A DNA stretch of 58,764 nucleotides from an uncultured Gammaproteobacteria bacterium (GTDB lineage: Bacteria > Patescibacteriota > Patescibacteriia > SBBC01 > CAIJZX01). Position 1 is the stretch's first letter. Each line of letters starts with the position of its first letter. The notes under the pieces were generated by a model that saw only the letters and a program-made list of their open reading frames with translations, searched no databases and was not told where the DNA came from. The stretch lies in the NCBI GenBank assembly GCA_964383765.1, contig CAYLHT010000006.1, forward strand, positions 1 to 58,764, in the 5' to 3' direction. This document shows, one piece after another, positions 30,544 through 47,612 of the stretch. Both the position numbers and the translations under genes were made by a program.

Positions 30544-30557
30544 CGCAACGGGCCGGT

Positions 30558-31619
30558 ATGCCTGAGGGACGCTACTCCATTCTCCCCAGCGCTCCCGAGC
30601 TGATCAGCCGGACGCTCTCCGGTTTGCGCGTTCGACCACACCCCACCTCATTCACCCCGGCCGTCGCCACCCGTCGCCACGCCCGTTATTATATGACCCC
30701 GGTCAGCGACCGGCGCGGACGATTGGCCTGGTTCAAGGCGACGCTCCAACGCACGCCGTGGTTACGGCATAGTTTGCGCGAGGAAATCCGGGTCCAGCGC
30801 GCCTTCGGTGAGTATGAGAAACGCTATCATCCCAACTTCGATTCCCCCTCGTACATCGCGAGTCACGACAATCGCCACGGGTTCGTGTGGTTGCTGCGCA
30901 AATACTGGCTCGGGTTGTTTGCTGGCGACATGGACAAATGGTTTGGCGTCGCCCCGACGTTTTTTCGTCATGTCACCGCCCAGAAGATGGCCGCAGTCCT
31001 GGCTGACGTACGCGCCATGACGCCGTTCATGAAACGCCGCATTGATATGGATGTGCATGATGCCGGTTGGTACCTGCTCGATTTTCACTACTACCGCAAA
31101 CATTTCTTTCCGGATTTTCTCAAGGACAAGCGCAATCCGGGTTGGAAACTTGACGACGTTGATCGACTCGAAGAGATCATCCACAAACACCGAACGTTCT
31201 TATCGACCCATGCCAACTCATTTACCCACGGCGACTTTTATCCAAACAACATCATGTTGCGTCCCGGTGCCACGCGACCCGTCGTATTGTTCGATTGGGA
31301 ATTATCGCACCTCAACTTGCCCACGTTTGATGCGGTCATGATGTATCTCCAGGCGTGGCGGAAACCAACGTGGCAAGCCACATTCCGGACCAGCACTTTG
31401 CGCCACATGGGAAACTCGAAGTCCATGGTCACGGCCTGGAATCTTGCCACCGTATCACTCGCCACCCGACTTGCCGGATTTTGCTTTATTCGTTTGAACA
31501 ATTCTCAACCGGAACGTTATCCCAAATTGCCGGCGGCTCAGCGTCCAACCCTCGAGCGGTTATTTCGGATGCACCTGGCACATTTACAGGCCGCGTACAC
31601 ACAACTGCGCAAATCATGA
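30558..31619 (+). CDS. aminoglycoside-phosphotransferase-fold kinase (possible sugar kinase)
   Basis: FTHGDFYPNNIM (HGDxxxxN catalytic loop) and FDWELS. Embedded in the glycogen cluster. Confidence 0.55.
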   Translation: MPEGRYSILPSAPELISRTLSGLRVRPHPTSFTPAVATRRHARYYMTPVSDRRGRLAWFKATLQRTPWLRHSLREEIRVQRAFGEYEKRYHPNFDSPSYIASHDNRHGFVWLLRKYWLGLFAGDMDKWFGVAPTFFRHVTAQKMAAVLADVRAMTPFMKRRIDMDVHDAGWYLLDFHYYRKHFFPDFLKDKRNPGWKLDDVDRLEEIIHKHRTFLSTHANSFTHGDFYPNNIMLRPGATRPVVLFDWELSHLNLPTFDAVMMYLQAWRKPTWQATFRTSTLRHMGNSKSMVTAWNLATVSLATRLAGFCFIRLNNSQPERYPKLPAAQRPTLERLFRMHLAHLQAAYTQLRKS

Positions 31620-33061
31620 AGATATTATTCGTGGCCGCGGAAGTCGCGCCGCTCGTCAAAGTCGGCGGCTTGGCAGACGTGGTCGGATCACTCCCGCTCG
31701 CCTTACGCGAACTTGGTCACGATGTGCGAGTGGTGATTCCAAGCTACGGCGCGATCGATCGATCAAAACTTTCACTTCGCTCTGGACCGAGCTTCACGTC
31801 TCAAGTTGAAGGGCATCCGCAAACAATCACAGTCTCGCAGACCATGGTTCCACAGTCCGACGTCCCGCTGTATCTGATTGACTTCCCCCCACTCTTTCAA
31901 GACAACGGAGTTTACCCGGTGGGTCAAGCCGTTGAGATTCAGCGCCTCGGACTTCAGCGTTTTGTGATGTTCTCGAGTTTCGTCGCGCAGTGGCTGGCGG
32001 TCAGCGACTGGCAACCCGAGGTGGTTCACTGTCATGACTGGCACGCTGGTTTGGTGCCGATTGCCTTGGCGATTCATCATCAGCCGGTCCACACCATCCT
32101 GACGATTCACAACCTTCACAACCAGGGCGTCTGGAATGCGGCTGAAGTCTGGTCATGGCTCGGATGGCGCGGCGATGAACATCCGCTGCTGGCGGAGCTA
32201 GATCAGCACAATGATCTCAATATTTTGCAATTAGCCATCCATAGCGCCTCCATCGTCAATACCGTTAGCCCGACCTATGCCCAGGAAATCGTAACCGCGC
32301 CCTACGGTGAAGGGTTAGCTGATGACTTAGCCACGCACCGGCCGCCGCTGGTTGGGATTTTGAATGGCCTCGATCAAGTCGCTTATGATCCGAGCCGAGA
32401 TCAGCACCTAGCCGAGCAATACACCATCAAAACCGTCATGACCGGTAAGGCAACCAATAAATCGGCGGTTCAGCAAAAGTTAAATCTTGAACCAGCGGCG
32501 GCCGCACCGTTGTTTGTCGCGATCAGCCGCCTCAGCCCGCAAAAAGGTTTTGATCTTTTTCCACCGGTAATTGATGATATAGTACGGGCTGGAGGCCAAG
32601 TCGCGATTCTCGGTAGCGGTTGGCCCGAAATCGAGGGTGAATTACATCGCTTGGCTGATGACCACCCACGAGCTGTGGCGATTCACTTGGGTTTTGATGC
32701 GGCCCTGGCGCAACAACTATACGCGGCGGCAGATTTCTTCTTAATGCCGTCGCGATTTGAGCCGTGCGGCCTTGGTCAAATGATTGCCATGCGGTACGGG
32801 AGCGTACCGATTGTTCGTGATACTGGTGGACTACATGACACGGTCACCGATCTCCGGCACGACCCGGACCAAGGCACTGGTTTCGTTTTCCCTCGTTTCG
32901 ACGCCGGGGATTTTCGCCAAGCCATTCAGGCGGCTGTACAACTGTATCGCCGACCGGCTACACTAGCTACTGTGATTGGCCGGGACATGCGTCACGACTT
33001 CTCGTGGGCGCGCTCGGCACACGACTACATGAAACTCTATGCCCAAGCCGAAAACGCCTAA
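31616..33061 (+). CDS. glgA: glycogen/starch synthase (GT5), copy 2
   Basis: Trimmed to MKILFVAAEVAPLVKVGGLADV. Its ATG overlaps the upstream stop (ATGA). Confidence 0.85.
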   Translation: MKILFVAAEVAPLVKVGGLADVVGSLPLALRELGHDVRVVIPSYGAIDRSKLSLRSGPSFTSQVEGHPQTITVSQTMVPQSDVPLYLIDFPPLFQDNGVYPVGQAVEIQRLGLQRFVMFSSFVAQWLAVSDWQPEVVHCHDWHAGLVPIALAIHHQPVHTILTIHNLHNQGVWNAAEVWSWLGWRGDEHPLLAELDQHNDLNILQLAIHSASIVNTVSPTYAQEIVTAPYGEGLADDLATHRPPLVGILNGLDQVAYDPSRDQHLAEQYTIKTVMTGKATNKSAVQQKLNLEPAAAAPLFVAISRLSPQKGFDLFPPVIDDIVRAGGQVAILGSGWPEIEGELHRLADDHPRAVAIHLGFDAALAQQLYAAADFFLMPSRFEPCGLGQMIAMRYGSVPIVRDTGGLHDTVTDLRHDPDQGTGFVFPRFDAGDFRQAIQAAVQLYRRPATLATVIGRDMRHDFSWARSAHDYMKLYAQAENA

Positions 33062-34004
33062 AGCTCCACAACCAGAAATCCGGGTCGATTACGTCCACGA
33101 TCGCCAGGTGATTATCGCGCCCGGCCGAGCCAAGCGACCCCACGATGTGAATTTTCCGGCCACCGGTGGTCCGTCCCCACTCTCACCCCAAGATGACACG
33201 TTTAGTCCGGAGCGGTTGAAAGGGGTCAAGGCACTCTTGACTGTCGGTGGACAAAAACCATGGAAAATCAAGGTGATTAAGAATCTATTCCCAGTTGTTA
33301 GCCCGGACTATCCTAAGGCCTACGGCTATCAAGAGGTGGTCGTCGAAACACCGGAATATGGAATTGAGTTGGCGAACCTGTCGGAAGACCATGTGGCGGA
33401 TGTTTTGCGCGTCTACGGTCATCGCGTTCGCGCCATTCAAAAAGACAAAAAAATTCGATACATCCTTGTCTTCAAGAATAACGGCGGGCGGGCCGGCGCA
33501 TCGATCAATCACGCCCACTCCCAAATTTTCGCCTCGGCCTATGTTCCGCCACACATCGTGACCCGCCGCAAACGCGCCCAAGAATATCGGGTGGTCTACA
33601 ACCGTGATTACTACAGCGACCTCCTGATCAAAGAAGAGAATGGTCCGCGTTGGATTGCTTCCGGCAGCCAGGTGTGTGCGCTCACACCATATGCTTCAGT
33701 CTACAACTACGAAGCGTGGATTATGCCCTGGCGTCGCGTGGACAATGTTTCGCAACTCAACGATAAAGAGGTGCGCGAAATGGCGCACTACCTGAAGTTG
33801 CTGCTCGGCCGCCTCAACCAAGAAAACTTGCCGTACAATTTCTACATGCACCAGGTCGTCGGCGACCAATCTGAACACCTGTATTTACGCATTTCCCCAC
33901 GTCGTGATGTCTGGGCAGGTTTAGAGCTCGGTTCGCGCTTGGTTGTGAATAGCGTTTCGCCCGAAGAAGCCGCCAAGTTCTACCAGCAAGCATTCAAGAA
34001 GTAG
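33039..34004 (+). CDS. galT: GalT-like hexose-1-phosphate nucleotidyltransferase (HIT superfamily branch III)
   Basis: NNGGRAGASINHAHSQIF is the HxHxQ motif. Size and layout fit the galactose-1-phosphate uridylyltransferase / ADP-glucose phosphorylase family. Confidence 0.65.
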   Translation: MPKPKTPKAPQPEIRVDYVHDRQVIIAPGRAKRPHDVNFPATGGPSPLSPQDDTFSPERLKGVKALLTVGGQKPWKIKVIKNLFPVVSPDYPKAYGYQEVVVETPEYGIELANLSEDHVADVLRVYGHRVRAIQKDKKIRYILVFKNNGGRAGASINHAHSQIFASAYVPPHIVTRRKRAQEYRVVYNRDYYSDLLIKEENGPRWIASGSQVCALTPYASVYNYEAWIMPWRRVDNVSQLNDKEVREMAHYLKLLLGRLNQENLPYNFYMHQVVGDQSEHLYLRISPRRDVWAGLELGSRLVVNSVSPEEAAKFYQQAFKK

Positions 34005-34013: not shown

Positions 34014-34865
34014 CTATAACGGGCTCTGGATACTTTTCAGTTTCGGGTTTGTCACCTGGGTGTACCGCTGGGTGGTCCGGATATTGTCATGTCCAAGCAA
34101 AACTTGCACATAGCGAATGTCCGTGCCGTTTTCGAGCAGGTGCGTAGCGAAACTGTGGCGCAAGCTATGGAATGTGGCGGGTTTGTTGATCCTGGCTTTG
34201 GCCAGCGCCTGTTCAAAAATCTTTTGGGCCGTTCGGGTCGTCAGCTTGCCGCCCCATTCGCTTGGAAAAACCAGGTCACGTCCTACCCTTCCAGAAATCA
34301 TGCTTTGTAAATCGCCAACTAATTTTTCAGGTAAAACGCTGATGCGATCTTTTCGGCCTTTGGCTTGCTTAATGTGAATCGTCTTTTCCGTGAAATCAAG
34401 GTCTTGAACTTTCAACACTACAACTTCACTAACCCGCAGCCCGGCGCCATAAGCCAGCCCCAGCATCAGCCGGTGTTTCGGATTCGTGGTGACGTCCAAC
34501 ATCCGGGCAATCTCTTCGCGTGACAAAACGATCGGTAAACTATGGCTTCGCTTGGCAGTCTGAATCACAATCGGCACACTTGTGCTTTCAATGTGCCGAT
34601 AGTAAAACTTCAAGGCGCTCAAACACAGGTTGCGAGTTTGTGGGGACGCCCCCCGGTTCTCAAGCGCCAACAAGAATTCCTTAATCCGCGCTTCGGGCAT
34701 ATTCACCGGCACGTCAAACTGAAACGCCAAAAAACCCTTCACAAAATACAGGTAGGTTTTGAGTGTTTTTGGGCTATAATTCCGTAGTCGCAATTCGGCT
34801 TCGGTTTTGTTGAGTTGTGAGTCAAAATTTTCCATAATAAATAAGTGGCTTTCTTGCCACCACAT
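34014..34865 (-). CDS. tyrosine recombinase, integron-integrase-like but short (Xer-length)
   Basis: Catalytic signature GAGLRVSE (R), KGRKDR (K), HSLRHSFATHLL (HxxR), LLGHDNIRTTQRYTQV (H..Y). The motifs are close to IntI1, from my recollection of its sequence (LDFDHGTIIVREGKGSKDR, ITKPATPHTLRHSFAT, LLGHSDVSTTMIYTHV, ...RSPL). Only about 58 aa separate KDR and HxxR. An alternative start is the ATG at 34835. Confidence 0.85.
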   Translation of the reverse strand: MWWQESHLFIMENFDSQLNKTEAELRLRNYSPKTLKTYLYFVKGFLAFQFDVPVNMPEARIKEFLLALENRGASPQTRNLCLSALKFYYRHIESTSVPIVIQTAKRSHSLPIVLSREEIARMLDVTTNPKHRLMLGLAYGAGLRVSEVVVLKVQDLDFTEKTIHIKQAKGRKDRISVLPEKLVGDLQSMISGRVGRDLVFPSEWGGKLTTRTAQKIFEQALAKARINKPATFHSLRHSFATHLLENGTDIRYVQVLLGHDNIRTTQRYTQVTNPKLKSIQSPL

Positions 34866-34913: not shown

Positions 34914-34954
34914 TATTATTATACGAACCAAGTTCGCATAATAACGAGATAGGC
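34914..34954 (+). other. attI-like site / first junction (G|ATAGGC at 34948/34949)
   Basis: GATAGGC (34948-34954) is the exact complement of GCCTATC, which opens attC-like site 1. It is preceded by the hairpin TATTATACGAAC-caa-GTTCGCATAATA (34917-34943). Confidence 0.6.
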
Positions 34955-35066
34955 GAAATAGTGCCCTTATTGACAGGAATTTAGTTTCTCGATAAGATTC
35001 TGTGTTCTTTCACAACAAATACTTTTAGGAAGCTTGCTCACGTCGCTTGGAAAGGAGGGTGCCACA

Positions 35067-35294
35067 GTGTTCACGACTCAAAGTACGCTTTCGGTGCTCA
35101 CTGGCTTCGGGTTCATCGCCGCCTGGATTTTTATCGGTTTCTTCGGCATTCACCTCTGGGCGGCCTGCTTTTCAGTGCCTCTTACCTACCGCTGGAAAAC
35201 GTGGCTTGCGATCGTTTTTGGACCCCTGACGTTTTGCCTCGTGGTCGTGTGGATCATCGCGGCTGCAGTGGACGATGTCGTCGAAGATCTGTGA
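35067..35294 (+). CDS. cassette 1: small two-TM membrane protein
   Basis: GTG start 7 nt after AAGGAGGG, in frame with ORF 35034..35294. TTGACA-17-TAAGAT promoter-like boxes at 34969-34997. Confidence 0.5.
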   Translation: MFTTQSTLSVLTGFGFIAAWIFIGFFGIHLWAACFSVPLTYRWKTWLAIVFGPLTFCLVVVWIIAAAVDDVVEDL

Positions 35295-35368
35295 ACGCTC
35301 CTTGTTTCCTTTGCGGGAAGGCCTCGCTTTCCCGCTTCCTAAAAGTATTTGTTGCCGCTAGCACAGTA

Positions 35369-35424
35369 TGCACTACCTCGCCTATCAGCGCGTATACGCC
35401 AAATAGGTTCGGCGTATGACGCGC
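35369..35424 (+). other. attC-like site 1 (short simple-hairpin class)
   Basis: GCCTATC-A-GCGCGTATACGCC-aaataggttc-GGCGTATGACGCGC-AAAC-GTTGTAT. One extrahelical G in the 3' arm. Confidence 0.8.
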
Positions 35425-35504
35425 AAACGTTGTATGCCATAGCGAACATGAAGAGATAAGTGCCTCGATCTCGGGGCGCGTGCCCCAAGTCCGAGGCACA
35501 CATG

Positions 35505-36088
35505 TTCGCCACCGCATACAACAGCGGATATGAGACGAAGGAAATCGGGTTTGGTTTTTAGTAAGTGAAAAAATAGCAGGCTTGGTAGCCTGTTATTTCG
35601 CTTCAGTGAAGATAGTTTTTCAGTCGTTAATCTTCTTCGGAATACACATCACTAATTTCTCGCCGAAGATTATCTAATTCATCATACTTTGCCTGTGATT
35701 CTACAGTAACAACGGGGGTGCTTGCGCCAGGCTTGGGCATGATCTTGCTCATTTCTTCATCGAGTTTTTCCACAATTTGTGGCATACGCATATTATCAGT
35801 AACTTCAATAAACTTTGCCGCACGGTCCCGAAAAGCTTTTTTTGATTCTTCCGTCATTGGTCCCCAAGTCCGACCCTCAAAATCTTCCGGCATATATAGT
35901 GACATTATTAGTTAATATATGGGAAAAATAACATGTGCCCACAAATAAAACAAGTGTTCATTGTAGCTTATTGACAATGTAGCAACCAAACCCGATTTCC
36001 TTCGTGCAAATTGCTACCTCGCTCCGGCGGTGGTAAAATTGTACCGCCGGATCGAAACAGCAACTTCTCATATCCGCAAACGTTAGGA
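35505..36088 (+). other. attC-like site 2 (branched class E, carries an ORF in helix-2 loop)
   Basis: ATACAAC-AGCGGATATGAGA...TCTCATATCCGC-AAAC-GTTAGGA. The inner helix CGAAGGAAATCGGGTTTGG / CCAAACCCGATTTCCTTCG encloses 35627..35905. A third hairpin lies around GGCGGTGGTAAAATTGTACCGCC. Confidence 0.7.
35627..35905 (-). CDS. hypothetical acidic protein (92 aa) located inside attC-like site 2
   Basis: AT-rich ORF. A minus-strand terminator hairpin (AATAACAGGC..GCCTGCTATTTTTT) lies at 35558-35587. Confidence 0.5.
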   Translation of the reverse strand: MSLYMPEDFEGRTWGPMTEESKKAFRDRAAKFIEVTDNMRMPQIVEKLDEEMSKIMPKPGASTPVVTVESQAKYDELDNLRREISDVYSEED

Positions 36089-36191
36089 GAAATAACGCCT
36101 CGCTTGTCTATTGACAGACAAGCACATATATGCCAGGGTTCCCTGGCTCATTAAGCTAACCAAAAAAGTGCACTCCTTCAGGAGGTGCGGC

Positions 36192-36584
36192 ATGACAGCG
36201 AAAGATCCGGAGAAAACTTGGGGGATCGCCCTAAGAGCCGCTAAGAACTATCTCGAGGGCGAGATCCAGAAGCATGAGTGTGGCGATCTTCTGGTAAAAC
36301 TGGAAGATCCCAAGGTTCGTCTCCTCGTGGGCCGCAACGTCAAGTTCCTGCGAACCGTGCAAGGTTTAACAGGATCAGAGCTTGAAGTGGTTGCGGGGTT
36401 GTCCAAGAACCTGGTCGGGAAATTCGAGTCAGGGGTCAAGGTCAACCCACGGTATGTGCTCATGATGGCAGCCACGTTCAAGGTTCTGCCGCACCTCCTG
36501 TTCCGGGAAGACCTGATTGAGCACCTGCGTGGCGTGGTCGCTCAAGAAATCAAAAGGTTCGGGGAGGAAAATCCTCGGTCATAG
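36192..36584 (+). CDS. cassette 3: XRE-family helix-turn-helix protein
   Basis: Trimmed to the ATG after AGGAGG. LRTVQGLTGSELEVVAGLSKNLVGKFESGVKVNPRYVLMMAATF is an HTH_XRE-like motif. Confidence 0.6.
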   Translation: MTAKDPEKTWGIALRAAKNYLEGEIQKHECGDLLVKLEDPKVRLLVGRNVKFLRTVQGLTGSELEVVAGLSKNLVGKFESGVKVNPRYVLMMAATFKVLPHLLFREDLIEHLRGVVAQEIKRFGEENPRS

Positions 36585-36655
36585 CACGTTGGAGGAAGGG
36601 GGCTCGCTCTCTTCCTCCACCCCTTTTTGTTATATTAGAAGCGAGGCGTTACATC

Positions 36656-36794
36656 TCCTAACAGCGCGTAACCGACGCGGTTTCTGGCGTCCGGCGAAGC
36701 CTGCCGCTTGCGAAACCGCTACATTTGCTGGTGTTTAGCCGCTCCGCGGCGTATGATAACACCAGCAAAAGTCGGTTACGCGCGGACGATAGCT
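36656..36794 (+). other. attC-like site 3 (139-bp three-helix class A)
   Basis: TCCTAAC-AGCGCGTAACCGAC...GTCGGTTACGCGC-GGAC-GATAGCT. Inner hairpins are GCGGTTTC..GAAACCGC and TGCTGGTGTT..AACACCAGCA. Confidence 0.85.
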
Positions 36795-37057
36795 GAAATT
36801 CCCTTTTTATTTTTCCGGTTTATCTACCGGAAATACAAAAAACTTTTTTAATTTCTTCTGTTATACTTTTTTTACTTTCCTGCCTGAATTAACATTATTG
36901 CTAGCTCAGGTAGGAGCACCAGCAAGATTCTGCTGATGCTTAAGGTGCTGTGGTCTCGCCCAAGGATTATGGTTTGCCTTGGATCCCCACTCTAGGGCAG
37001 GCGTCGCGGGCGCGACTTAAAGGCCTGACCTTTGGCTCGGTCCAGACTTGTCGCCGA

Positions 37058-37660
37058 TTATCCCTTGAGGAGATAATCGAGCATGAGATGCCAGGACTTC
37101 ACCCAGTCAAAATGTTCCTCACGGAACACTTCGGGATCGGGCTTGTCCTTGCAAATCTCGTACAAGTCGTTGTGACCGAATGGCTTGACCGGGTCACCGC
37201 CGCGCTCATAGGCATTGATCCAGCCCCTGTTGTTCGTCAGGAGCACCCGGCACTCGCCGACCATGAAAGGCGTCGGTTCAGCCTCACTCGCGTTGAAAGC
37301 GTCGAGGCAGGCAGAGGCGGGATGAGCGTGATGGTTCGAGTCGGTCAGCAGGCCTATGCACTTGGCGCCGTTTTTGATTGCGGCGTAAAGTACGAGGAAG
37401 ATGCCAACAGGCATCTCCTGGCCAGCATACGACATCCCCCGGTTGCCAAGGAGCGCAGCGCTGGCTGGCATGAGCAGATCACAGAGCACCACGTCGTACT
37501 GCTGACGGACGCTCTGGATGCTCTCCAGGTGCTCCCCGATCACGAACATGGCCTGCATCGCTTCGTCATACGACGAAACGGCGGTCACATCATGGTCGGC
37601 GAGCTGCGCTTTGGCAGCCCCCAAGTGTTTGGGATTGTCGTCGATCACGAGGATCTTCAT
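37058..37660 (-). CDS. cassette 4: CheY-like receiver-domain protein with unknown C-terminal extension
   Basis: MKILVIDDNPKHL...YDVVLCDLLMP has receiver-like acidic residues. GGGAGGTGA SD, TTGACA hexamer at 37744-37749 (minus), GC-rich. Confidence 0.55.
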   Translation of the reverse strand: MKILVIDDNPKHLGAAKAQLADHDVTAVSSYDEAMQAMFVIGEHLESIQSVRQQYDVVLCDLLMPASAALLGNRGMSYAGQEMPVGIFLVLYAAIKNGAKCIGLLTDSNHHAHPASACLDAFNASEAEPTPFMVGECRVLLTNNRGWINAYERGGDPVKPFGHNDLYEICKDKPDPEVFREEHFDWVKSWHLMLDYLLKG

Positions 37661-37829
37661 GCGGTCACCTCCCGATTGGAGTGGGTTTTGGTCAAAGGTC
37701 TAGCTAAAACGAGACCGGCCAGCATAGCATGGCCAATTCTTTTTGTCAATAGTTAGGCCAACTATAGAAATTAAAAAAGTTTTTTTGTATACGTTCCGTC
37801 AAAACGGAACAAAATAAAAAGGGAACATC

Positions 37830-37954
37830 AGCTATCAGCGCGTAAGCGGCTCCGGCTTACTCCGTTCCTCCGTAAGCCTGCGCCTAAGTTGCGCGAGTGT
37901 CGCCTTCGGCATATTATACACTCGCGCAACTTCGCTTACGCGCGGACGTTGTGC
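37830..37954 (+). other. attC-like site 4 (125-bp three-helix class B)
   Basis: AGCTATC-AGCGCGTAAGCG...CGCTTACGCGC-GGAC-GTTGTGC. Inner hairpins are GGCTTAC-tccgttcctcc-GTAAGCC and TTGCGCGAGTGT..ACACTCGCGCAA. Confidence 0.85.
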
Positions 37955-38045
37955 GCCATCGTGTTTTTTTGTAAAACAAATGAGACCCTTATTTATACTC
38001 CTTGGGTCTCAGTAGGAGTGTGGGCGCCTAGCCCTTCTATGAACC

Positions 38046-38393
38046 TTACGATTTCAGATATGCGGGCTTGTCCTCGACGAACAGTCGCCCCTTGCGCAGG
38101 TCCGTAGCGTAGACGCCCTCGACCATACGAAGGTGCGGCCACTTGCTGTCGGTGACATACGCGTTGAAGTGCCAGACATCAGCCGCACCGTGCAGAACGT
38201 CGTCGTTTTCTGCGCCAGCCGTGGTCGACCCTCGCGCCAGTTGATCGATGAACATGTGGATCGCGCCCAAGCCACCGAGATGCATGATGACTGGGAGGCG
38301 ATGGCCGTGCTGGTTGGTTTCTCCAGCACCCAACGAAGCGAGCAGATTATACTTGCTCGGTCCGTCGACGACGTTCAACGGTTGCTTTGACAT
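38046..38393 (-). CDS. cassette 5: hypothetical protein (115 aa), GC-rich
   Basis: Trimmed to MSKQPLNV..., preceded by GAAGGAGA. TTGACA hexamer at 38513-38518 (minus). Confidence 0.5.
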   Translation of the reverse strand: MSKQPLNVVDGPSKYNLLASLGAGETNQHGHRLPVIMHLGGLGAIHMFIDQLARGSTTAGAENDDVLHGAADVWHFNAYVTDSKWPHLRMVEGVYATDLRKGRLFVEDKPAYLKS

Positions 38394-38554
38394 AACGAAT
38401 CTCCTTCTGTAAGGAGCCTGGCGCACTTGTACGGCGGCGCCCACCCTTCTCCGTTTCCGGAGGGCTCGATCATCCGATCGAACAAAGTAGGTTAGCATGA
38501 AATGCTGCAATTTGTCAAGCCCGAATGTTTCTTAAAACGAAAAAACACGACAGC

Positions 38555-38693
38555 GCACAACAGCGCGTAACCGCCTCGGTTTCTGGCGTCCGGCATAGCC
38601 GTCCGCTTCCGAAACCGCTACATTTGCTGGTGTTTAGCCGCTCCGCGGCGTATGATAACACCAGCAACAGTCGGTTACGCGCAAACGTTGTCC
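38555..38693 (+). other. attC-like site 5 (class A)
   Basis: GCACAAC-AGCGCGTAACCG...CGGTTACGCGC-AAAC-GTTGTCC. Near-identical core to sites 3, 7 and 15. Confidence 0.85.
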
Positions 38694-38779
38694 GAAAATT
38701 TGCCTCCCTCGTTGTAAGATAAGCGCGGTTTCCATAAAATAAAGATGGTTGTTACTCTTCCTAAGGTATAGCAGACAAT

Positions 38780-39373
38780 ATGTCCCTATTTAACAAACGT
38801 TTAGATTCGTACGATAGTCAGGTACTCCAAACTCTTGAGAACCAAGTGAACGTATTATTCTCAGTACTTGGAGAATCGCCAAATGAGATGCATAAATTGG
38901 CCAAGAAGTTTCTTGATCAAAGTATTAGGTTATCAGAAAAGAATGGATATCGACATAAAACCAATCTTGGTGATGAAAGAATAAAGGATGTGACTTGGCT
39001 AAACAAACGAATAGCTGAAGGGTTGACCGCGGAAGACTGTAAAGATTTCTGGAATCGTGCACACGAAGTGATCTTGGGTGAATTTATCATTAATGATGTT
39101 TGGAGAAGGGGTCGAGCAAATGCATACAAGCTAACTGGGATGTCCTGGGAAGATGCTGTTAAAAGGGTTCAAAAAGATCACATCATTTATGGCGAACCAG
39201 ATCAAATTGAAGGAGGCTTCATTGGCGACAGTCGGTATATTTATCCTGAATTTGCGAAAAGATTTGAACACTGGAGAAGTACTGTCACCACCGAGCAAGA
39301 AGTAGAGCTATCTCAAAAGTATGAGACATATAATGCAATGGTTAGGGATCTGATCATTAAGAACAAAATCTGA
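38780..39373 (+). CDS. cassette 6, gene 1: hypothetical protein (197 aa), AT-rich
   Basis: Clean ORF with no recognisable motifs. Confidence 0.5.
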   Translation: MSLFNKRLDSYDSQVLQTLENQVNVLFSVLGESPNEMHKLAKKFLDQSIRLSEKNGYRHKTNLGDERIKDVTWLNKRIAEGLTAEDCKDFWNRAHEVILGEFIINDVWRRGRANAYKLTGMSWEDAVKRVQKDHIIYGEPDQIEGGFIGDSRYIYPEFAKRFEHWRSTVTTEQEVELSQKYETYNAMVRDLIIKNKI

Positions 39374-39381
39374 AGACGCAA

Positions 39382-39789
39382 ATGCCACAAACGAAATATG
39401 ATCAATCAATAATAAAAGAAGCGGTCCGCCACATTCAGAACGAATGGGATAATTTCAAGATATGTTATCAACAGTTGCACAGCCCAAACAATGCTATTTA
39501 CTTTGAATGTTTCTTATTGCACGCTCGGAATTTATATGATTTTTTCTTTACACCCAAGAAAATAAATGATGATGTTACTATAACCGACTTTGTTCCTTCT
39601 CCTTTAAAAGGTAATTCATACGTATTCCCAAAAGAGGCGATAAATAAACAGCTAAGCCATATCACATATTCAAGAGTTATTAATCCAATAAATTTATTCC
39701 CGGAACAGGATCAAATCTATTCCTACATCCACAACACACTTATCGATTACAATAATATTGCAGATGAGAGATACCGAATAACGGAATGA
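39382..39789 (+). CDS. cassette 6, gene 2: hypothetical protein (135 aa), AT-rich
   Basis: ORF 8 nt downstream of gene 1, probably co-transcribed. Confidence 0.5.
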   Translation: MPQTKYDQSIIKEAVRHIQNEWDNFKICYQQLHSPNNAIYFECFLLHARNLYDFFFTPKKINDDVTITDFVPSPLKGNSYVFPKEAINKQLSHITYSRVINPINLFPEQDQIYSYIHNTLIDYNNIADERYRITE

Positions 39790-39827
39790 AACCGCGCTTA
39801 TCTTTATGGGTCGGTCGGCAAATCTAC

Positions 39828-39885
39828 GGACAACAGCGAGTCATACGAAATAGCAAGTACTTCGTATGACTCGCAAACGTTGTAC
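39828..39885 (+). other. attC-like site 6 (short simple-hairpin class)
   Basis: GGACAAC-A-GCGAGTCATACGAA-atagcaagtac-TTCGTATGACTCGC-AAAC-GTTGTAC. Confidence 0.85.
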
Positions 39886-39959
39886 GAAATGGAGCGAGGT
39901 TTATGTAAATGAAGAGACCGCCCACAACGCGTTAGCGTGGGGCGGCCTTTGTCGCTGAT

Positions 39960-40262
39960 CTACAGCAACTTGAACGTACCTACAGGGCGATCGGCGTTTT
40001 CGTCCGTGGACTCGACGACCCATACGTTCGGTACCACACCCGGAACGTACTTGAGACGTCGGATCGTGACCCCTTGGAACCGGGGCGAAGACACATACAG
40101 CGCGATGCCTTCCTTGTCGCCGTACCCGATTGAAGTCACTGTTCCCGCGATCATGTGAGAGCTACCGAACAGGAACGGCCGCCCCACGATCTGCGTCGGA
40201 TTGTCGGGCAAACCACAGTCCGTAAGTGCTTGGCCGAACTGCGCTTCGTTCAACTGGAACAT
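39960..40262 (-). CDS. cassette 7: hypothetical protein (100 aa), GC-rich
   Basis: Trimmed to MFQLNEAQ..., preceded by AAGGAGGA. TTGACA-17-TTAAAT boxes at about 40332-40360 (minus). Confidence 0.5.
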   Translation of the reverse strand: MFQLNEAQFGQALTDCGLPDNPTQIVGRPFLFGSSHMIAGTVTSIGYGDKEGIALYVSSPRFQGVTIRRLKYVPGVVPNVWVVESTDENADRPVGTFKLL

Positions 40263-40380
40263 CGCAATCCTCCTTGTCGTTGCTACGTACACAGAGAGTG
40301 GCTGGCCAAACCTGGTGCGAACGAACTGGGCATTTAAGCACAGTTTCTCTGTACTGTCAAGGCCAACCTCGCTCCAAATC

Positions 40381-40519
40381 GTACAACAGCGCGTAACCGA
40401 CGCGGTTTCTGCCGCCCGGCGAAGCCGTTCGCATTCGAAACCGCTAAGTTTGCTGGCGTTAAGCCGCTCCGCGGCGTATGATAACACCAGCAAAAGTCGG
40501 TTACGCGCGGACGATAGTC
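40381..40519 (+). other. attC-like site 7 (class A)
   Basis: GTACAAC-AGCGCGTAACCGAC...GTCGGTTACGCGC-GGAC-GATAGTC. Confidence 0.85.
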
Positions 40520-40807
40520 GAAATATTTATTTTCTTTTTTCGGGCTAACGCCCGATTGTTTACAAAAATTTTCCAATTTCTTTTTCTCTTGAATAGAGGG
40601 GAAGTGGGTGTTTTCTCCGCTTCGCTGCGAAAACGCTTTGTTTTTGAGGGGAATCTAAAATAGCAAAACGAAACTGGGGAAAGCATGTTAATTCGCTGAA
40701 ATACGTCATTTCTCATGAAAATAAAGCTCTTCATCATATACCGGCTTGACAAGTAATATACATACGTTATACCCTTACTCAGGGTATATAATTATAAAAG
40801 GTGGTAT

Positions 40808-41029
40808 ATGGCAGCGGAATTAAGCAAACGCGACCGTTTCAAAAAACTGGCTGTTTATCGTACAAACGAAGTTTTGAAGCGACTCAAGGTCCTAGGAAAT
40901 TGTTCAAATAGAAGTGCGTACGAATACACTGAGGAAGAAGTAAATAAGATTTTTCAAGAAATTGACCGCCGGACTAAGGAAGTAAAGTCAAAGTTTTATT
41001 TTCCTAAAAATCGAAACTTTCAGCTGTAA
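40808..41029 (+). CDS. cassette 8, gene 1: small basic protein (73 aa)
   Basis: First ORF of a tightly coupled three-gene operon (TAATG overlap with the next gene). Promoter-like TTGACA-16-TATACC at 40746-40773. Confidence 0.5.
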   Translation: MAAELSKRDRFKKLAVYRTNEVLKRLKVLGNCSNRSAYEYTEEEVNKIFQEIDRRTKEVKSKFYFPKNRNFQL

Positions 41030-44195: not shown

Positions 44196-44327
44196 ATAGT
44201 TGTTTGCTAGTCGCCGGGCATTCACCCCTTTAATTCCCCTCTGCCCGGCGACCGATTGAGAAAAAGAAATTGGAAAACTTTTGTAAACAAGTCCCGCTGC
44301 CGCGGGACAAAATAATATAAATACATC

Positions 44328-44453
44328 GACTATCAGCGCGTTTGCGGCTACGGCTCGCTCCGTTCCTCCGCGAGCCTTCGCCTATATTGCGCGGGTGTCG
44401 CCTTCGGCATATGATACACCCGCGCAACAATCGCAAACGCGCGGACGTTAGGC
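44328..44453 (+). other. attC-like site 8 (class B)
   Basis: GACTATC-AGCGCGTTTGCG...CGCAAACGCGC-GGAC-GTTAGGC. Inner hairpins are GGCTCGC-tccgttcctcc-GCGAGCC and TTGCGCGGGTGT..ACACCCGCGCAA. Confidence 0.85.
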
Positions 44454-44989: not shown

Positions 44990-45014
44990 GTTAAATTATT
45001 TTTGAGAAAACGCC

Positions 45015-45646
45015 GCCTAACACGGGCTAGCCGGAGAGCGAACGAAATACTACTTTAATCTATGAGTTTCTACATTATTATTCGAGGTCCGCTCGGCTGC
45101 GGAAAATCTACGATTTCAGAAAAGCTATCTCAGCAATTCAATGCTGAACATATTGCAGTTGATCGCGTTCTTGACGAACACAATCTTACCGAAGACAAAG
45201 AGGACGGTTACATTTCACAAACAAGTTTCAAGCGAGTGAATGAATTAATCGCTCCGAAAGCACAATCATTATTAGAAAATGGAAAAACCGTTATCTTTGA
45301 CGGGAACTTTTACTGGAAATCACAGCTTGATGACTTAATTCAACGCCTGGATTTCCGCCATTACGTTTTCACACTGAAAGCACCACTTGAACTCTGCATC
45401 GAACGCGATCAAGCGCGAGACAAAACTCATGGGAAAGACGCAGCCGAGGCCGTATACAATAAATCAACTTCTTTTGAATATGGCACGTTGATTGATACAA
45501 CTGGAATTATTGACGAAACGGTACAGAAAATTCTTGAACATTTGCCAATAACAAAGTAGTATTTCGTTCGCTCTCCAAAATTGCGTAAGTGTACGCTTCG
45601 CGATAGTATACACCTACGCAACTTCGGCTAGCCCGAAACGTTGTGC
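45015..45646 (+). other. attC-like site 9 (class B-related, carries an ORF in helix-2 loop)
   Basis: GCCTAAC-ACGGGCTAGCCG...CGGCTAGCCCG-AAAC-GTTGTGC. The 20-bp helix GAGAGCGAACGAAATACTAC / GTAGTATTTCGTTCGCTCTC encloses 45062..45559. The third hairpin TTGCGTAAGTGTA..TACACCTACGCAA resembles class B. Confidence 0.7.
45062..45559 (+). CDS. P-loop kinase-like ATPase (AAA_33-like) located inside attC-like site 9
   Basis: Walker A IIIRGPLGCGKSTISEKL. Small nucleotide/metabolite kinase-like size (165 aa). Confidence 0.6.
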   Translation: MSFYIIIRGPLGCGKSTISEKLSQQFNAEHIAVDRVLDEHNLTEDKEDGYISQTSFKRVNELIAPKAQSLLENGKTVIFDGNFYWKSQLDDLIQRLDFRHYVFTLKAPLELCIERDQARDKTHGKDAAEAVYNKSTSFEYGTLIDTTGIIDETVQKILEHLPITK

Positions 45647-46439: not shown

Positions 46440-46551
46440 GCACAACACGGCGTATACGACATCCCTTCCTCTCTTCGGGGGTAACTCGCACAGCTCGATA
46501 TTCTACCCCCTGCGTTCAGTCGGGACGGTCGTATACGCCGAAACGTTGTAC
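46440..46551 (+). other. attC-like site 10 (112-bp class C)
   Basis: GCACAAC-ACGGCGTATACGAC...GTCGTATACGCCG-AAAC-GTTGTAC. Inner hairpin GGGGTAA..TACCCC. Homologous to site 13. Confidence 0.8.
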
Positions 46552-46631
46552 GCCATGGCGAACATGAAAGTATAAGTGCCTCGACCTCGGGGCGCGTGCC
46601 CCAAGTCCGAGGCACACATGTTCGCCACAGC

Positions 46632-47612
46632 ATACAACAGCGGATATGAGACGGAGGAAATCGGGTTTGGTTTTTTTATAGCAAGAAACCCCCGGAAGGC
46701 ACAGTTGTCCTTGCGGGGGCTGCGATCACGATGATCGCGAAGGTTCATTCAATGGGTAGAGAGTGTTCAGGCCAATGCGACTCGATGGGTCTCGCGGGAC
46801 AACCCATGCAGTCCGGCATACGTAGCCAGGATCTGGCTGGCTGTCATCACCTTACACGGATTCTCAGCATTCACGTCCATTTCGACGTCGTTGATCATGC
46901 CAGATTCGTAGATCCGCACATGAGGCTCGCCGATCTTGTCGTACGCACGGAAGACCGTGAACACCAGGTAATGCGGAAACCACATGGTGGCGCTTCCCTC
47001 GCCGCCGTACAGCCGGATGGTCGCGGTCACTCGCCGAAGCTCGTGCCGAACGTCCTGCGCTGGGGCATCGGGGAACGACCGCTCGAATGGGCCGATGAGA
47101 GCGTCGATCTCGACGATTCGGAACATGTCCGAATAGTACTTCAGCTCATTCTCGGCGCGGTCCTGACGCGAGCCGAAGCCTTTTCGGGACACCGGCGGGG
47201 CCGTTACGTTGGAGCGGTAGAGCTGGATTCCAGGACCGTACAGCTTGGCCAGCTCGGCTCGCAACAGCTCCTCTGCGAGTGACACTGAAAAGGGTCGGTC
47301 GGAACGATGCAGTTTCTTGAACATGGTATTCCTCCCATCACGGGAGCGTATAGGGATATTCCTACACGGCTACCATCTCGGCAGCGAACTAGCCAAGAGT
47401 ATTAACCTCTCTGCTAAATCGCTACCGAGGTACGGATGGAAGAGCTGAAATGAACAAACAGGTCACACTACACTATATACTGGCATTTGTCAATGCCAGA
47501 CACAAAAAACCAATTCCCATTTCCTCCGTCCAAATTGCTGCTTCGTTCCGGCGGTAGTATAATTGTACCGCCTCCACTTCGCAGCAACTTCTCATATCCG
47601 CGGACGTTGTAT
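46632..47612 (+). other. attC-like site 11 (class E, carries an ORF in helix-2 loop)
   Basis: ATACAAC-AGCGGATATGAGA...TCTCATATCCGC-GGAC-GTTGTAT. The inner helix CGGAGGAAATCGGGTTTGGTTTTTT / AAAAAACCAATTCCCATTTCCTCCG encloses 46767..47324. Homologous to site 2. Confidence 0.7.
46767..47324 (-). CDS. hypothetical protein (185 aa), GC-rich, located inside attC-like site 11
   Basis: GGGAGGAA SD 7 nt before the ATG. TTGACA hexamer at 47488-47493 (minus). Preferred over the antisense ORF 46731..47282. Confidence 0.5.
   Translation of the reverse strand: MFKKLHRSDRPFSVSLAEELLRAELAKLYGPGIQLYRSNVTAPPVSRKGFGSRQDRAENELKYYSDMFRIVEIDALIGPFERSFPDAPAQDVRHELRRVTATIRLYGGEGSATMWFPHYLVFTVFRAYDKIGEPHVRIYESGMINDVEMDVNAENPCKVMTASQILATYAGLHGLSRETHRVALA

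What the first reader, a model, noticed from the sequence alone, without database searches (positions are those of the whole stretch)
35505..36088. Complete ORF carried inside the variable loop of an attC-like site (class E, two homologous shells with different cargo)
Seen in sequence: site 2 (35505-36088) and site 11 (46632-47612) are homologous in every structural part.
- The core, AACAGCGGATATGAGA ... TCTCATATCCGC-RRAC-GTT.
- Helix 2, CG(A/G)AGGAAATCGGGTTTGG / its complement.
- Hairpin 3 around TCCGGCGGT.GTA.AATTGTACCGCC.

The loop of helix 2 holds unrelated minus-strand genes: a 92-aa AT-rich ORF in site 2 and a 185-aa GC-rich ORF in site 11. Homology stops exactly at the inner ends of helix 2.

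Inference: cargo can occupy a second loop of the branched site. This implies either cargo replacement inside a conserved shell or a second level of recombination.
Basis: partly seen in the sequence, partly recalled or inferred. Interest (0 to 1): 0.75.

Follow-up and report, generated by a model that had tools for sequence, protein, structure and literature searches.

The report
Genes carried inside integron-like recombination hairpins
In a gene-cassette array next to a Xer-like recombinase, probably in a Patescibacteria genome, some cassettes carry their gene inside the folded recombination site instead of beside it. The same conserved shell holds an unrelated gene in each of seven copies from six sources, which is not how integron cassettes are known to be built.

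Summary
Positions 35514-36084 and 46630-47608 are two homologous attC-like sites. Their halves (R''-L''-helix 2 arm, and helix 2 arm-hairpin 3-L'-RRAC-GTT) are separated by 427 and 835 nt of unrelated DNA, each with one minus-strand ORF.

They are cassettes 2 and 11 of a 15-cassette array (34948-54410). The array lies beside a 283-aa tyrosine recombinase that resembles integron integrases but lacks their specific extra domain.

I found the same shell five more times in other genomes and metagenomes. Six of the seven copies are complete, and each holds a different insert (0.37-2.0 kb, either orientation). The seventh is cut off by the fetched stretch. No empty copy was found.

A second shell family (window site 9, a P-loop kinase in the loop) and a simple hairpin site also enclose real genes.

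Array-level cassette boundaries remain at G|TT, not at helix 2. As an excised circle, the two shell halves join into one 226-nt hairpin.

Best reading: cassettes here have two cargo positions, one on each side of the recombination core. How cargo is exchanged is not resolved.

This is a new variant of integron-type cassettes. All evidence is computational.

The parts
34014..34865 (-). Tyrosine recombinase, 283 aa. It resembles integron integrases and XerA but lacks the IntI-specific insertion. It is transcribed divergently from the array.
   Evidence: Pfam Phage_integrase 3.7e-43. TIGR02249 scores 218.9 bits, below its cutoff of 265, in two stretches. Against VchIntIA (2A3V), query 192-211 stands opposite residues 183-245. 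Relatives are ~273 aa and named Patescibacteria 'tyrosine recombinase/integron integrase'.
34933..34959 (+). attI-like site TTCGCATAATAACGA-G|AT-AGGC-GAAAT. This is where the array starts.
   Evidence: It is conserved about 90 nt upstream of the recombinase gene in the window and in L012 and L016-L021. Cassette 1's R'' (CGCCTATC) is complementary to GATAGGCG.
35430..36082 (+). Cassette 2 as a whole, from G|TT of site 1 to G|TT of site 2.
   Evidence: GTT lies at 35429-35431 and 36082-36084. Homology with cassette 11 starts and ends at these points. R'' matches the cassette's own 5' end at 10 of 12 positions.
35429..35522 (+). Hairpin A. R' (GTTGTATGC) pairs with R'' (GCATACAAC) around a GC-rich hairpin. 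It fills the position where a canonical cassette would carry its gene.
   Evidence: DNA fold -27.7 kcal/mol, z = -6.2. Homologues stand in front of the same shell in cassette 11, L021 and L023.
35514..35535 (+). R'' box GCATACAAC, then A, then L'' box GCGGATATGAGA (the 5' half of the core).
35536..35556 (+). Helix 2, 5' arm: CGAAGGAAATCGGGTTTGGTT.
   Evidence: It forms a 21-bp perfect helix with 35984-36004.
35557..35983 (-). Insert in the L-side loop. It has a promoter-like site (35941-35914), an ORF at 35627-35905 (92 aa, or 88 aa from the second ATG) and an intrinsic-terminator-like hairpin (35592-35577), all on the minus strand.
   Evidence: It is unrelated to the inserts of the other shells. 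The ORF has no homologue other than itself.
35984..36004 (+). Helix 2, 3' arm: AACCAAACCCGATTTCCTTCG.
36011..36063 (+). Hairpin 3, the side branch of the three-way junction.
36066..36084 (+). L' box TCTCATATCCGC, spacer AAAC, then GTT (inferred crossover G|TT).
46546..47606 (+). Cassette 11, with the same outer hairpin A and the same shell: R''-L''-helix 2 arm at 46630-46672, helix 2 arm at 47508-47528, hairpin 3 at 47535-47587, L'-GGAC-GTT at 47590-47608.
46673..47507 (-). Insert of cassette 11: ORF 46767-47324 (185 aa) with its own leader hairpin, a promoter-like site and a terminator-like hairpin.
   Evidence: Three homologues at 36-40% identity lie in loci without a shell, and the P0003 loci (L002-L004) share the leader hairpin.
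45011..45642 (+). Site 9, a second shell family (L box CGGGCTAGCCG). Perfect 20-bp helix 2 arms (45034-45053 and 45556-45575) enclose ORF 45062-45559, a P-loop kinase of 165 aa.
   Evidence: AAA_33 E = 5e-17. Same family with other ORFs in L020 (two copies) and L021.

Best explanation
**What it is.** Site 2 is the recombination site of gene cassette 2 (35430-36082). The cassette belongs to an integron-like array beside a Xer-like tyrosine recombinase of the type found in Patescibacteria.

**Site design.** Sites in this lineage fold into a core duplex with two parts:
- an R box (ATYTC-NNNN-AAC paired with GTT-NNNN-GAAAT);
- an L box (GCG... paired with ...CGC).

The two boxes are separated by an asymmetric A / RRAC loop. 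The core can be closed by a loop at either end. Ordinary cassettes carry their gene in the R-side loop and have only a small structure (helix 2 plus hairpin 3) on the L side.

**This cassette.** In cassettes 2 and 11 the arrangement is reversed.
- The R-side loop is the 93-nt hairpin A.
- The gene, with its own promoter-like and terminator-like signals, sits in the L-side loop at the tip of helix 2.
- Other cassettes fill both loops: window site 9, L012, L020 and L021.

**How it most likely works.**
1. The cassette moves as one unit by crossover at G|TT.
2. In the chromosome, the 33-bp L-box plus helix 2 duplex has to clamp the half-sites together across the insert. Excision should therefore be rare.
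3. In the excised circle the two shell halves are contiguous and form one local 226-nt hairpin. Integration should not be hindered.

**Shown:** the pairing, the cassette boundaries, the shell conserved around unrelated inserts, and compensatory changes in helix 2.

**Inferred:** recombination of the folded single strand, the difference between excision and integration, and the way new inserts arrive. For the last point my best guess is the same unknown process that assembles cassettes, acting at hairpin tips. Template switching between the arms would then keep or extend their complementarity.
For: **Array and site form**
- 15 sites share the form RYYYAAC-A-L''...L'-RRAC-G(T/A)T. L boxes differ between sites but stay complementary within each site.

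**Cassette units**
- R'' matches the cassette's own 5' end at 9-11 of 12 positions in cassettes 1-12. It matches the next cassette's start at 4-10 of 12.
- The crossover triplet covaries: GAT with ATC in cassettes 1, 4 and 8.

**Architecture**
- Shells without their insert fold like the compact sites 3 and 4.
- In the linear context the minimum-energy fold keeps 32 long-range pairs (35524-35555 with 35985-36077).
- The circularly permuted shell folds as one hairpin, -80 to -89 kcal/mol for cassette 2 and -70 to -80 for cassette 11.

**Comparative**
- Seven copies of the shell from six sources. The six complete ones carry unrelated inserts of 0.37-2.0 kb: minus-strand genes in five, a plus-strand gene in L015, and three genes in L023.
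- The shell is more conserved (84-100%) than the recombinase gene (73-76% nucleotide identity).
- Five pairs changed on both sides in helix 2 of L023.

**Generality**
- A second shell family always encloses a promoterless plus-strand ORF (AAA_33 kinase 5e-17, and ORFs of 110, 86 and 120 aa). Its distal arms are specific to each insert and perfectly complementary.
- In L012 a Trypco2 ORF lies directly between L'' and L'. The same L box in L020 has only helix 2 and hairpin 3.

**Outer arms behave the same way**
- L012 4691-4778 and 5801-5870 match window 47586-47672 and 50501-50570 (85% and 97%) around different genes. The homology ends at AACAGCG, where L'' begins.
Against: - Nothing here shows recombination. 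No excised circle, no empty site and no population variant was observed.
- The recombinase lacks the IntI domain that, in integrons, contacts extrahelical bases of folded attC.
- In classical integrons a long variable terminal structure lowers recombination by up to four logs under replicative conditions (PMC8946536, read). Sites spanning 0.4-2 kb may therefore be nearly inert.
- No empty copy of this shell was found in seven cases or with a covariance model. The direction of evolution (insertion into a hairpin, or arms built around a gene) is therefore unknown.
- The insert junctions are ragged (2-7 T on the left). That does not point to a precise insertion mechanism.
- The 92-aa ORF has no homologue, no clear ribosome-binding site and only a weak structure model (pLDDT 62).
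- All contigs except the window are metagenome assemblies. Repeated shells could cause mis-joins of the outer context.
Confidence: 0.6

Rival explanations
1. Double-stranded, dif-module-like system. Each half-site (R''-A-L'' and L'-RRAC-R') is an independent duplex core site for the Xer-like recombinase. Sites alternate in orientation, and genes lie in both kinds of interval, as in the C and D modules of Acinetobacter plasmids. The L-side insert is then an ordinary module. It would be moved by cointegrate formation and resolution, or by a second strand exchange on the L'' side of the core.
For: - The recombinase aligns end to end with XerA and lacks the IntI insertion. Its family is the Xer-related 'Cand' group (PMC8138268).
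- Half-sites alternate in orientation, with genes in either interval.
- Inner and outer modules reassort. The same outer arms occur with the finding's shell in L012 and with a short site in the window. The breakpoint is at AACAGCG, between R'' and L''.
- dif modules come as alternating C and D modules (PMC13141974).
Against: - The two half-sites have unequal spacers (A against RRAC) in every site. As duplex sites they would not be equivalent.
- The variable parts of the L and R boxes covary within a module instead of being conserved binding sequences.
- R'' pairs with the cassette's own 5' end, which matters only in a folded or circular form.
- Hairpin 3 and helix 2 have no role in a duplex model.
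Confidence: 0.17
2. Second-level cassette. The helix 2 arms are a separate recombination site. The insert is exchanged there by the same or another recombinase, independently of the outer cassette.
For: - The comparative breakpoints of the variable DNA lie at the tip of helix 2 in all complete copies.
- In this shell the tip reads ...TTTG-GTT / AAC-CAAA..., a paired GTT/AAC triplet at the limit of conservation.
Against: - There is no GTT/AAC at the junction in the second shell family or in the simple L012 site.
- Helix 2 is a perfect duplex. It lacks the asymmetric loop seen in every core.
- The junctions are ragged.
- None of the array ORFs scanned matches a recombinase or transposase family, though several have no Pfam match at all.
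Confidence: 0.1
3. Dead site. A self-contained gene (promoter, ORF, terminator), or an unrecognised mobile element, inserted into the loop of a normal site and disabled it. The shell is then a relic and the cassette is fixed in place.
For: - The inserts in this shell carry their own promoter-like and terminator-like signals. Their base composition differs from each other (38.9% against 55.8% GC).
- Homologues of the 185-aa ORF live outside any shell, and some share its leader hairpin.
- A group II intron-like reverse transcriptase lies next to the shell in L015. Elements that target such sites are therefore present in these arrays.
Against: - Six different inserts lie at the same position of one shell, and there are two further site families with enclosed ORFs. 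Independent accidents do not explain this.
- The arms remain perfect or change in a compensated way.
- The shell is more conserved than the recombinase gene.
- There is no transposase, no target duplication and no terminal repeats belonging to the insert.
- The second family's ORFs are promoterless and packed as tightly as normal cassette ORFs.
Confidence: 0.1
4. RNA-level element. The long-range arms act in the transcript, for example as a double-stranded RNA processing or stability signal bracketing the ORF, and have nothing to do with DNA recombination.
For: In the second shell family the ORF is on the array strand. The arms would flank it in a read-through transcript.
Against: - In five of the six complete copies of this shell the genes are on the opposite strand. 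Their own promoter-like and terminator-like signals lie inside the arms, so the arms would not be in that transcript.
- The arms continue directly into the L and R boxes shared by all sites.
- No Rfam family matches this region.
Confidence: 0.03

Closest known systems
Integron gene cassettes and attC sites (sedentary chromosomal integrons, IntI)
   Same: - A tyrosine recombinase gene lies divergent from an array of mostly same-strand, mostly promoterless cassettes, with an attI-like site next to the gene.
- Each cassette ends in an imperfect palindrome with R''/L''/L'/R' boxes and AAC...GTT.
- The boundary is at G|TT.
- Site sequence varies while pairing is kept.
- R' of a cassette is completed only in the circle.
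   Different: - The recombinase lacks the IntI-specific insertion (I2 helix).
- The core has a 1 x 4 asymmetric loop (A against RRAC) instead of the described extrahelical bases.
- Many sites are three-way junctions.
- The R box extends into long cassette-specific outer arms.
- About a third of the sites examined enclose 0.3-2 kb with genes between L'' and L'. Described attC sites are about 57-141 nt (my knowledge), with the gene outside.
dif modules flanked by pdif sites on Acinetobacter plasmids (XerC/XerD)
   Same: - The recombinase is Xer-type.
- Half-sites alternate in orientation, so genes can lie in two kinds of interval (C and D modules there, R-side and L-side loops here).
- A pair of adjacent modules is the excisable unit.
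- Modules reassort.
   Different: - pdif sites are conserved 28-bp duplex sites with a 6-bp spacer and two recombinases.
- Here the boxes covary within a module, the two half-sites have unequal spacers, and helix 2, hairpin 3 and the outer arms point to a folded substrate.
- Only one recombinase gene is seen in the window.
Folded single-stranded attP of CTX-type phages used by XerCD (my knowledge, not tested here)
   Same: A Xer recombinase without the integron-specific domain acts on a site formed by folding one DNA strand.
   Different: That is a phage genome integrating at dif. It is not an array of cassettes, and no gene lies inside the folded site.
Elements that interrupt attC sites (group IIC-attC introns, IS1111-attC; my knowledge)
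   Same: Foreign DNA is found inside or right next to an attC hairpin. An intron-type reverse transcriptase lies beside the shell in L015.
   Different: Those elements encode their own mobility protein and have defined ends. The inserts here are ordinary small genes without one.

Membership tests
Integron (IntI / attI / attC) | Integrase of the IntI subfamily, carrying the IntI-specific additional domain. | tested here: not met
   TIGR02249 scores 218.9 bits, below its cutoff of 265, in two stretches. About 43 residues are missing opposite VchIntIA 183-245. Close relatives are all 270-290 aa and align in one stretch.
Integron (IntI / attI / attC) | Recombinase gene adjacent to and divergent from the array, with an attI site at the junction. 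| tested here: met
   The gene lies at 34014-34865 (-). The conserved site TTCGCATAATAACGAG(A/T)T-NNNN-GAAAT lies at 34933-34959 and in eight loci in all. Arrays follow it in the window and in L012, L016, L020, L021 and L023.
Integron (IntI / attI / attC) | Cassette sites are imperfect palindromes with R''-L''...L'-R', RYYYAAC / GTTRRRY, and the boundary at G|TT. | tested here: met
   The crossover position is inferred from homology breakpoints and from complementarity to each cassette's own end. It was not observed.
Integron (IntI / attI / attC) | Compact attC (tens to about 140 nt) with the cassette gene outside the hairpin. | tested here: not met
   Sites 2, 9 and 11 span 571, 632 and 979 nt with ORFs between L'' and L'. 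The same holds in L012, L015, L020, L021 and L023.
Integron (IntI / attI / attC) | Extrahelical bases and an unpaired central spacer that direct bottom-strand choice. | tested here: inconclusive
   The folds show perfect L stems and a conserved A against RRAC asymmetric loop. No bulged bases appear in the L box.
Integron (IntI / attI / attC) | Recombination of the folded bottom strand, resolved by replication. | not testable with these tools
   This needs strand-specific delivery assays.
dif-module arrays (pdif sites, XerC/XerD) | Conserved 28-bp sites: XerC arm, 6-bp spacer, XerD arm. | tested here: not met
   Only GAAAT, GTT, RRAC and CGC are conserved. The rest of both arms varies and covaries within modules. 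The spacers are unequal, 1 against 4 nt.
dif-module arrays (pdif sites, XerC/XerD) | Sites alternate in orientation, and genes lie in both module types. | tested here: met
   This is a resemblance of layout only.
Insertion sequence or MITE inside a site | A transposase or its terminal repeats, plus a target-site duplication at the insert ends. | tested here: not met
   The inserts share no ends, the junctions are ragged and lack direct repeats, and no insert ORF that was scanned matches a transposase or recombinase family.

The most novel reading that the evidence does not exclude
These arrays are a living intermediate between Xer/dif-module systems and integrons.

- A recombinase without the integron-specific helix recombines folded hairpin sites.
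- A 'cassette' is really a pair of modules, R-side and L-side, either of which can hold genes.
- The compact attC hairpin of classical integrons is the shrunken L-side module.
- L-side modules, with their genes, are exchanged between cassettes by a second crossover on the L'' side of the core. This would give a second level of shuffling, and it would offer a view of how cassettes are assembled.
Probability: 0.2. Interest if true: 0.9.

Novelty: new variant of a known kind. Interest (0 to 1): 0.74.

Why it matters
**Open questions it touches.** How integron cassettes are built, and how integron integrases arose from Xer recombinases, are both unresolved. This lineage has many examples of one conserved folded site joined to unrelated genes at two different positions, next to a recombinase that lacks the integron-specific domain. 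That makes both questions testable with defined sequences.

**Practical consequence.** Tools that cap attC length at about 200 nt would probably miss these sites and read such cassettes as multi-gene cassettes or as array ends.

**Scale.** The recombinase family has thousands of members in Patescibacteria. A large reservoir of cassette arrays, some full of defence genes, may have gone unnoticed.

Tried and rejected
**Searches that led nowhere**
- The 92-aa ORF has no homologue among 5.8 billion clusters apart from itself. It has no Pfam or NCBIfam hit. Its AlphaFold model is weak (pLDDT 62, three helices).
- The 185-aa ORF has a better model (pTM 0.69) but no fold match in the PDB (best E 0.34) and no family hit.
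- Rfam has nothing in the array.
- The 18-nt shell pattern in genome contigs gave nine hits. Seven were chance matches inside genes.
- The contexts of the 185-aa homologues (L002-L005) contain no shell.
- A covariance model of the insert-free shell found no empty copy in 202 kb of related loci. It did find a further loaded one, in L023.
- Covariation within the four closest shells is uninformative, because they are too similar.
- Literature searches for integron-like arrays in Patescibacteria or the Candidate Phyla Radiation found nothing relevant.

**Scenarios considered and rejected**
1. A circular cassette inserted at a secondary GTT in the loop. That would leave the incoming cassette's own hairpin beside the gene, and both helix 2 arms on one side. 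Neither is seen.
2. A cassette inserted upside down through the top strand. Working through the geometry, the gene still ends up outside the hairpin.
3. Fusion of two neighbouring cassettes. This needs two precise deletions, repeated independently in ten sites.
4. A simple inverted duplication of the 3' half. The 5' half lacks hairpin 3.
5. Chance inverted repeats.
Full report
**1. The observation**

| Element | Site 2 | Site 11 |
|---|---|---|
| R'' GCATACAAC | 35514-35522 | 46630-46638 |
| A + L'' GCGGATATGAGA | 35523-35535 | 46639-46651 |
| Helix 2, 5' arm | 35536-35556 | 46652-46672 |
| Insert | 35557-35983 (427 nt) | 46673-47507 (835 nt) |
| Helix 2, 3' arm | 35984-36004 | 47508-47528 |
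| Hairpin 3 | 36011-36063 | 47535-47587 |
| L' TCTCATATCCGC | 36066-36077 | 47590-47601 |
| Spacer + GTT | AAAC, GTT 36082-36084 | GGAC, GTT 47606-47608 |

Coordinates were checked.

- The 19-nt helix 2 arm occurs four times in the window, against 0.05 expected by chance.
- The inserts are unrelated. Their GC content is 38.9% and 55.8%.
- Each insert holds one long minus-strand ORF, of 92 and 185 aa.
- Homology between the two loci is 93% over 141 nt on the left and 85% over 65 nt on the right.

The description needs three adjustments:
- A short motif TTG(A/T)CAATG lies just inside the right-hand arm.
- A third site in the window also encloses an ORF (section 6).

**2. The setting**

An ORF at 34014-34865 (-) encodes a tyrosine recombinase (Phage_integrase 3.7e-43).

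- Its best NCBIfam match is the integron-integrase subfamily, but below the cutoff and in two pieces (218.9 against 265 bits).
- Against the Vibrio integrase structure 2A3V, 20 residues stand where that protein has 63. The IntI-specific insertion is therefore absent. The archaeal XerA aligns end to end.
- Relatives number in the thousands. They are about 273 aa long and share 60-76% identity. Where named, they are 'tyrosine recombinase/integron integrase' of Patescibacteria lineages (Kerfeldbacteria, Pacebacteria, Portnoybacteria, Gracilibacteria).
- This appears to be the Xer-related 'Cand' group of a published classification, where simple recombinases of that kind are taken to resolve chromosome dimers (PMC8138268). 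I did not test the assignment.

Fifteen sites lie downstream on the plus strand. They run from a conserved attI-like sequence (34933-34959) to tyrS at 54408. All have the form RYYYAAC-A-L''...L'-RRAC-G(T/A)T. L boxes differ from site to site but pair within each site. The attI-like sequence is conserved in front of the recombinase gene in eight loci.

**3. Cassette boundaries**

In cassettes 1-12 the 12 nt that end in the AAC of R'' are complementary to the cassette's own first 12 nt at 9-11 positions. They match the start of the next cassette at only 4-10 positions.

Where a cassette begins with GAT instead of GTT (cassettes 1, 4 and 8), its R'' ends in ATC instead of AAC.

The units of the array therefore run from G|WT to G|WT. 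Cassettes 2 (35430-36082) and 11 (46546-47606) are such units. This rules out the helix 2 arms as array-level boundaries.

**4. Architecture**

With the insert replaced by four bases, the shells fold into a three-way junction made of the L stem, helix 2 and hairpin 3. The energies are -44 to -60 kcal/mol, z = -10 to -14. The compact sites 3 and 4 of the same array have the same plan.

In the full linear context, the minimum-energy DNA fold keeps 32 long-range pairs between 35524-35555 and 35985-36077.

The stretch in front of R'' is a 93-nt hairpin. In it the cassette's 5' end (GTTGTATGC) pairs with R'' (z = -6.2). It stands where a normal cassette has its gene.

**5. The same shell elsewhere**

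One pattern scan of GTDB genomes and one of JGI metagenomes were run. Look-ups of recombinase homologues followed. Together they gave five more copies.

| Copy | Source | Insert |
|---|---|---|
| L012 | MAG labelled Candidatus Kerfeldbacteria | 603 nt, minus-strand ORF. A 327-aa ORF fills the normal position. |
| L015 | JGI metagenome | 939 nt, plus-strand 215-aa ORF with its own promoter-like and terminator-like signals |
| L021 | JGI metagenome | about 370 nt, minus-strand ORF. Hairpin A and a site-1-like attC lie upstream, as in the window. |
| L023 | JGI metagenome | about 2.0 kb with three reverse genes. Hairpin A lies upstream. |
| L006 | GTDB MAG | 5' half only; the fetched stretch ends before any 3' half |

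Sources.

- The inserts share nothing beyond a terminator-like repeat in two of them.
- Shell identity is 84-100%. The recombinase genes of L012 and L021 are 73-76% identical to the window's at the nucleotide level.
- In L023 the helix 2 arms have diverged but still pair. In the distal 11 bp, five pairs changed on both sides; only 2 of 500 shuffles do as well.
- No empty copy was seen. A covariance model of the insert-free shell found none either.

**6. Other sites that enclose genes**

*Second shell family.* Window site 9 (45011-45642) has a different L box (CGGGCTAGCCG). Its helix 2 arms are a perfect 20 bp, and they enclose ORF 45062-45559. That ORF is a P-loop kinase (AAA_33, 5e-17). A HAD-type ORF fills the normal position of the same cassette.

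- The same L box occurs twice in L020 and once in L021, each time around a different plus-strand, promoterless ORF (110, 86 and 120 aa).
- The proximal part of helix 2 is conserved.
- The distal part is specific to each insert and perfectly complementary.
- The stop codon lies in or at the 3' arm.

*Simple hairpin site.* In L012 a Trypco2-domain ORF lies directly between L'' and L' of a simple site. The same L box in L020 has only helix 2 and hairpin 3.

About ten of roughly thirty sites examined enclose genes.

**7. The inserts**

The reverse-oriented inserts of the finding's shell look like self-contained transcription units.

- They have promoter-like hexamers, sometimes a Shine-Dalgarno sequence, an ORF and a hairpin followed by a T run.
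- A TTGAC(A/T) motif on the minus strand lies 8-16 nt inside the right-hand arm in four of the five copies aligned; window site 2 reads TTGTCA there. It may belong to the shell. I did not test this statistically.
- The 185-aa ORF has three homologues at 36-40% identity outside any shell. The P0003 loci (L002-L004) share a leader hairpin with it, so it is a real gene that was imported together with its leader.
- The 92-aa ORF is an orphan and remains the weakest element.

**8. How it most likely works**

In the excised circle, the order of elements is:
helix 2 3' arm, hairpin 3, L', RRAC, G|TT, hairpin A, R'', L'', helix 2 5' arm.

This is one contiguous element. It folds as a single 226-nt hairpin:

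| Cassette | Top strand (kcal/mol) | Bottom strand (kcal/mol) |
|---|---|---|
| 2 | -80 | -89 |
| 11 | -70 | -80 |

A cassette circle is thus a core duplex (R box, asymmetric loop, L box) with a loop at each end.

- Normal cassettes have the gene in the R-side loop.
- Cassettes 2 and 11 have it in the L-side loop, with hairpin A on the R side.
- Several cassettes fill both loops.

The outer arms behave like the inner shell. The arms of window cassette 12 recur in L012 at 85% and 97% identity, around other genes and with a different inner module. That homology ends at AACAGCG.

My inferences are these:
- The recombinase acts on the folded core, with crossover at G|TT.
- Loaded cassettes integrate readily, because the core folds locally in the circle.
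- They excise poorly, because the core must fold across the insert.
- The perfect, insert-specific arms are kept or extended by template switching between the arms. This mechanism is known for quasi-palindromes (my knowledge).

How a new gene comes to lie at a hairpin tip is unknown.

**9. Rivals**

- *Duplex, dif-module-like mechanism.* It fits the Xer-like enzyme, the alternating half-sites and the reassortment of inner and outer modules. It does not explain the unequal spacers, the covariation within modules, or pairing of R'' with the cassette's own end.
- *Separate recombination site in helix 2.* It fits the breakpoints and the paired GTT/AAC at the tip of this shell. It fails for the other two kinds of loaded site, and none of the array ORFs scanned matches a second recombinase.
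- *Accidental insertion into a now dead site.* It cannot explain six different inserts at one position plus two more families.
- *RNA-level role.* It is unlikely, because the reverse genes have their own signals inside the arms.

**10. Comparison with known systems**

The system works like an integron in layout and in site logic. It fails two defining features: the IntI-specific domain, and a compact attC with the gene outside.

Its layout also parallels the alternating C and D modules of pdif arrays (PMC13141974), but it lacks conserved duplex sites.

In classical integrons, long variable terminal structures reduce recombination strongly under replicative conditions. They do not do so when the single strand is delivered by conjugation (PMC8946536). 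Sites that span genes are not described in the papers I could search.

**11. Verdict**

- The mechanism of cargo exchange is open.
- This is a new variant of integron-type cassettes, in a lineage where such arrays appear not to have been reported.
- All evidence is computational, and most comparison sequences are metagenome assemblies.

Noticed in passing
34014-34865 (-) and 34933-34959; L012, L016-L021: The array's recombinase belongs to a very large family of ~273-aa Patescibacteria recombinases that lack the IntI insertion. A conserved site TTCGCATAATAAC(G/C)AG(T/A)T-NNNN-GAAAT lies about 90 nt upstream of the gene in all eight loci checked. Arrays range from about one to 15 or more cassettes. 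The site might double as the lineage's dif site.
   Followed up: partly
34948, 36788, 40513 (GAT); R'' of cassettes 1, 4 and 8 at about 35379-35390, 37825-37836 and 44323-44334: The crossover triplet is GAT instead of GTT at the attI-like site and at sites 3 and 7. The cassettes that start there have R'' ending in ATC instead of AAC. The triplet covaries.
   Followed up: yes
44448-45640: Cassette 9 holds a HAD-type phosphatase ORF (44504-44989) in the normal position and a P-loop kinase (45062-45559) inside the site. The 5' half-site lies between two genes that could be functionally linked.
   Followed up: partly
47606-47672 and 50501-50570; L012 4691-4778 and 5801-5870: Cassette 12 is bracketed by outer arms of about 65 nt that extend the R box. 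The same arms occur in L012 around a different gene and joined to a different inner module. The homology ends where L'' begins.
   Followed up: partly
47350-47420 (-); L002 192-244, L003 1788-1840, L004 1144-1196: A hairpin CTCGGTAGCGATTT...AAATCGCTGCCGAG lies in the 5' leader of the 185-aa ORF. Its 40%-identical homologue P0003, in loci without a shell, has the same hairpin. It may be a cis-regulatory element.
   Followed up: no
54310-54410: Site 15, the last site before tyrS, is degenerate. Its hairpin 3 and L' resemble the finding's shell, but its 5' half belongs to another class and barely pairs. It may be a deletion product at the end of the array.
   Followed up: no
L015 1413-2435 (-): A 340-aa reverse transcriptase of group II intron type (YADD motif) lies in reverse orientation just after the shell and a mini-site. 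The loaded cassette there is flanked by 52-nt direct repeats (34-85 and 1191-1242).
   Followed up: no
41029-44195; L020 84-8902: Cassette 8 carries a DNA methylase (N6_N4_Mtase) and a 757-aa ORF, possibly a restriction-modification system. The array in L020 is full of defence-type genes (GmrSD, SduA, AlwI, methylases).
   Followed up: no
L006rc 1438-1553, 2449-2513, 4241-4304; L012 5911-5974: A terminator-like element of about 65 nt (AAAGAACCCC...GGGGTT...) is repeated three times in L006. It also occurs at the end of the L012 insert.
   Followed up: no
29176-34004; L022 978-7093: The side of the recombinase gene away from the array (galT-like gene, starch synthases, GH57 glycosidases) is syntenic with L022. 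That contig ends 145 nt upstream of the recombinase gene. The array probably broke the assembly.
   Followed up: no
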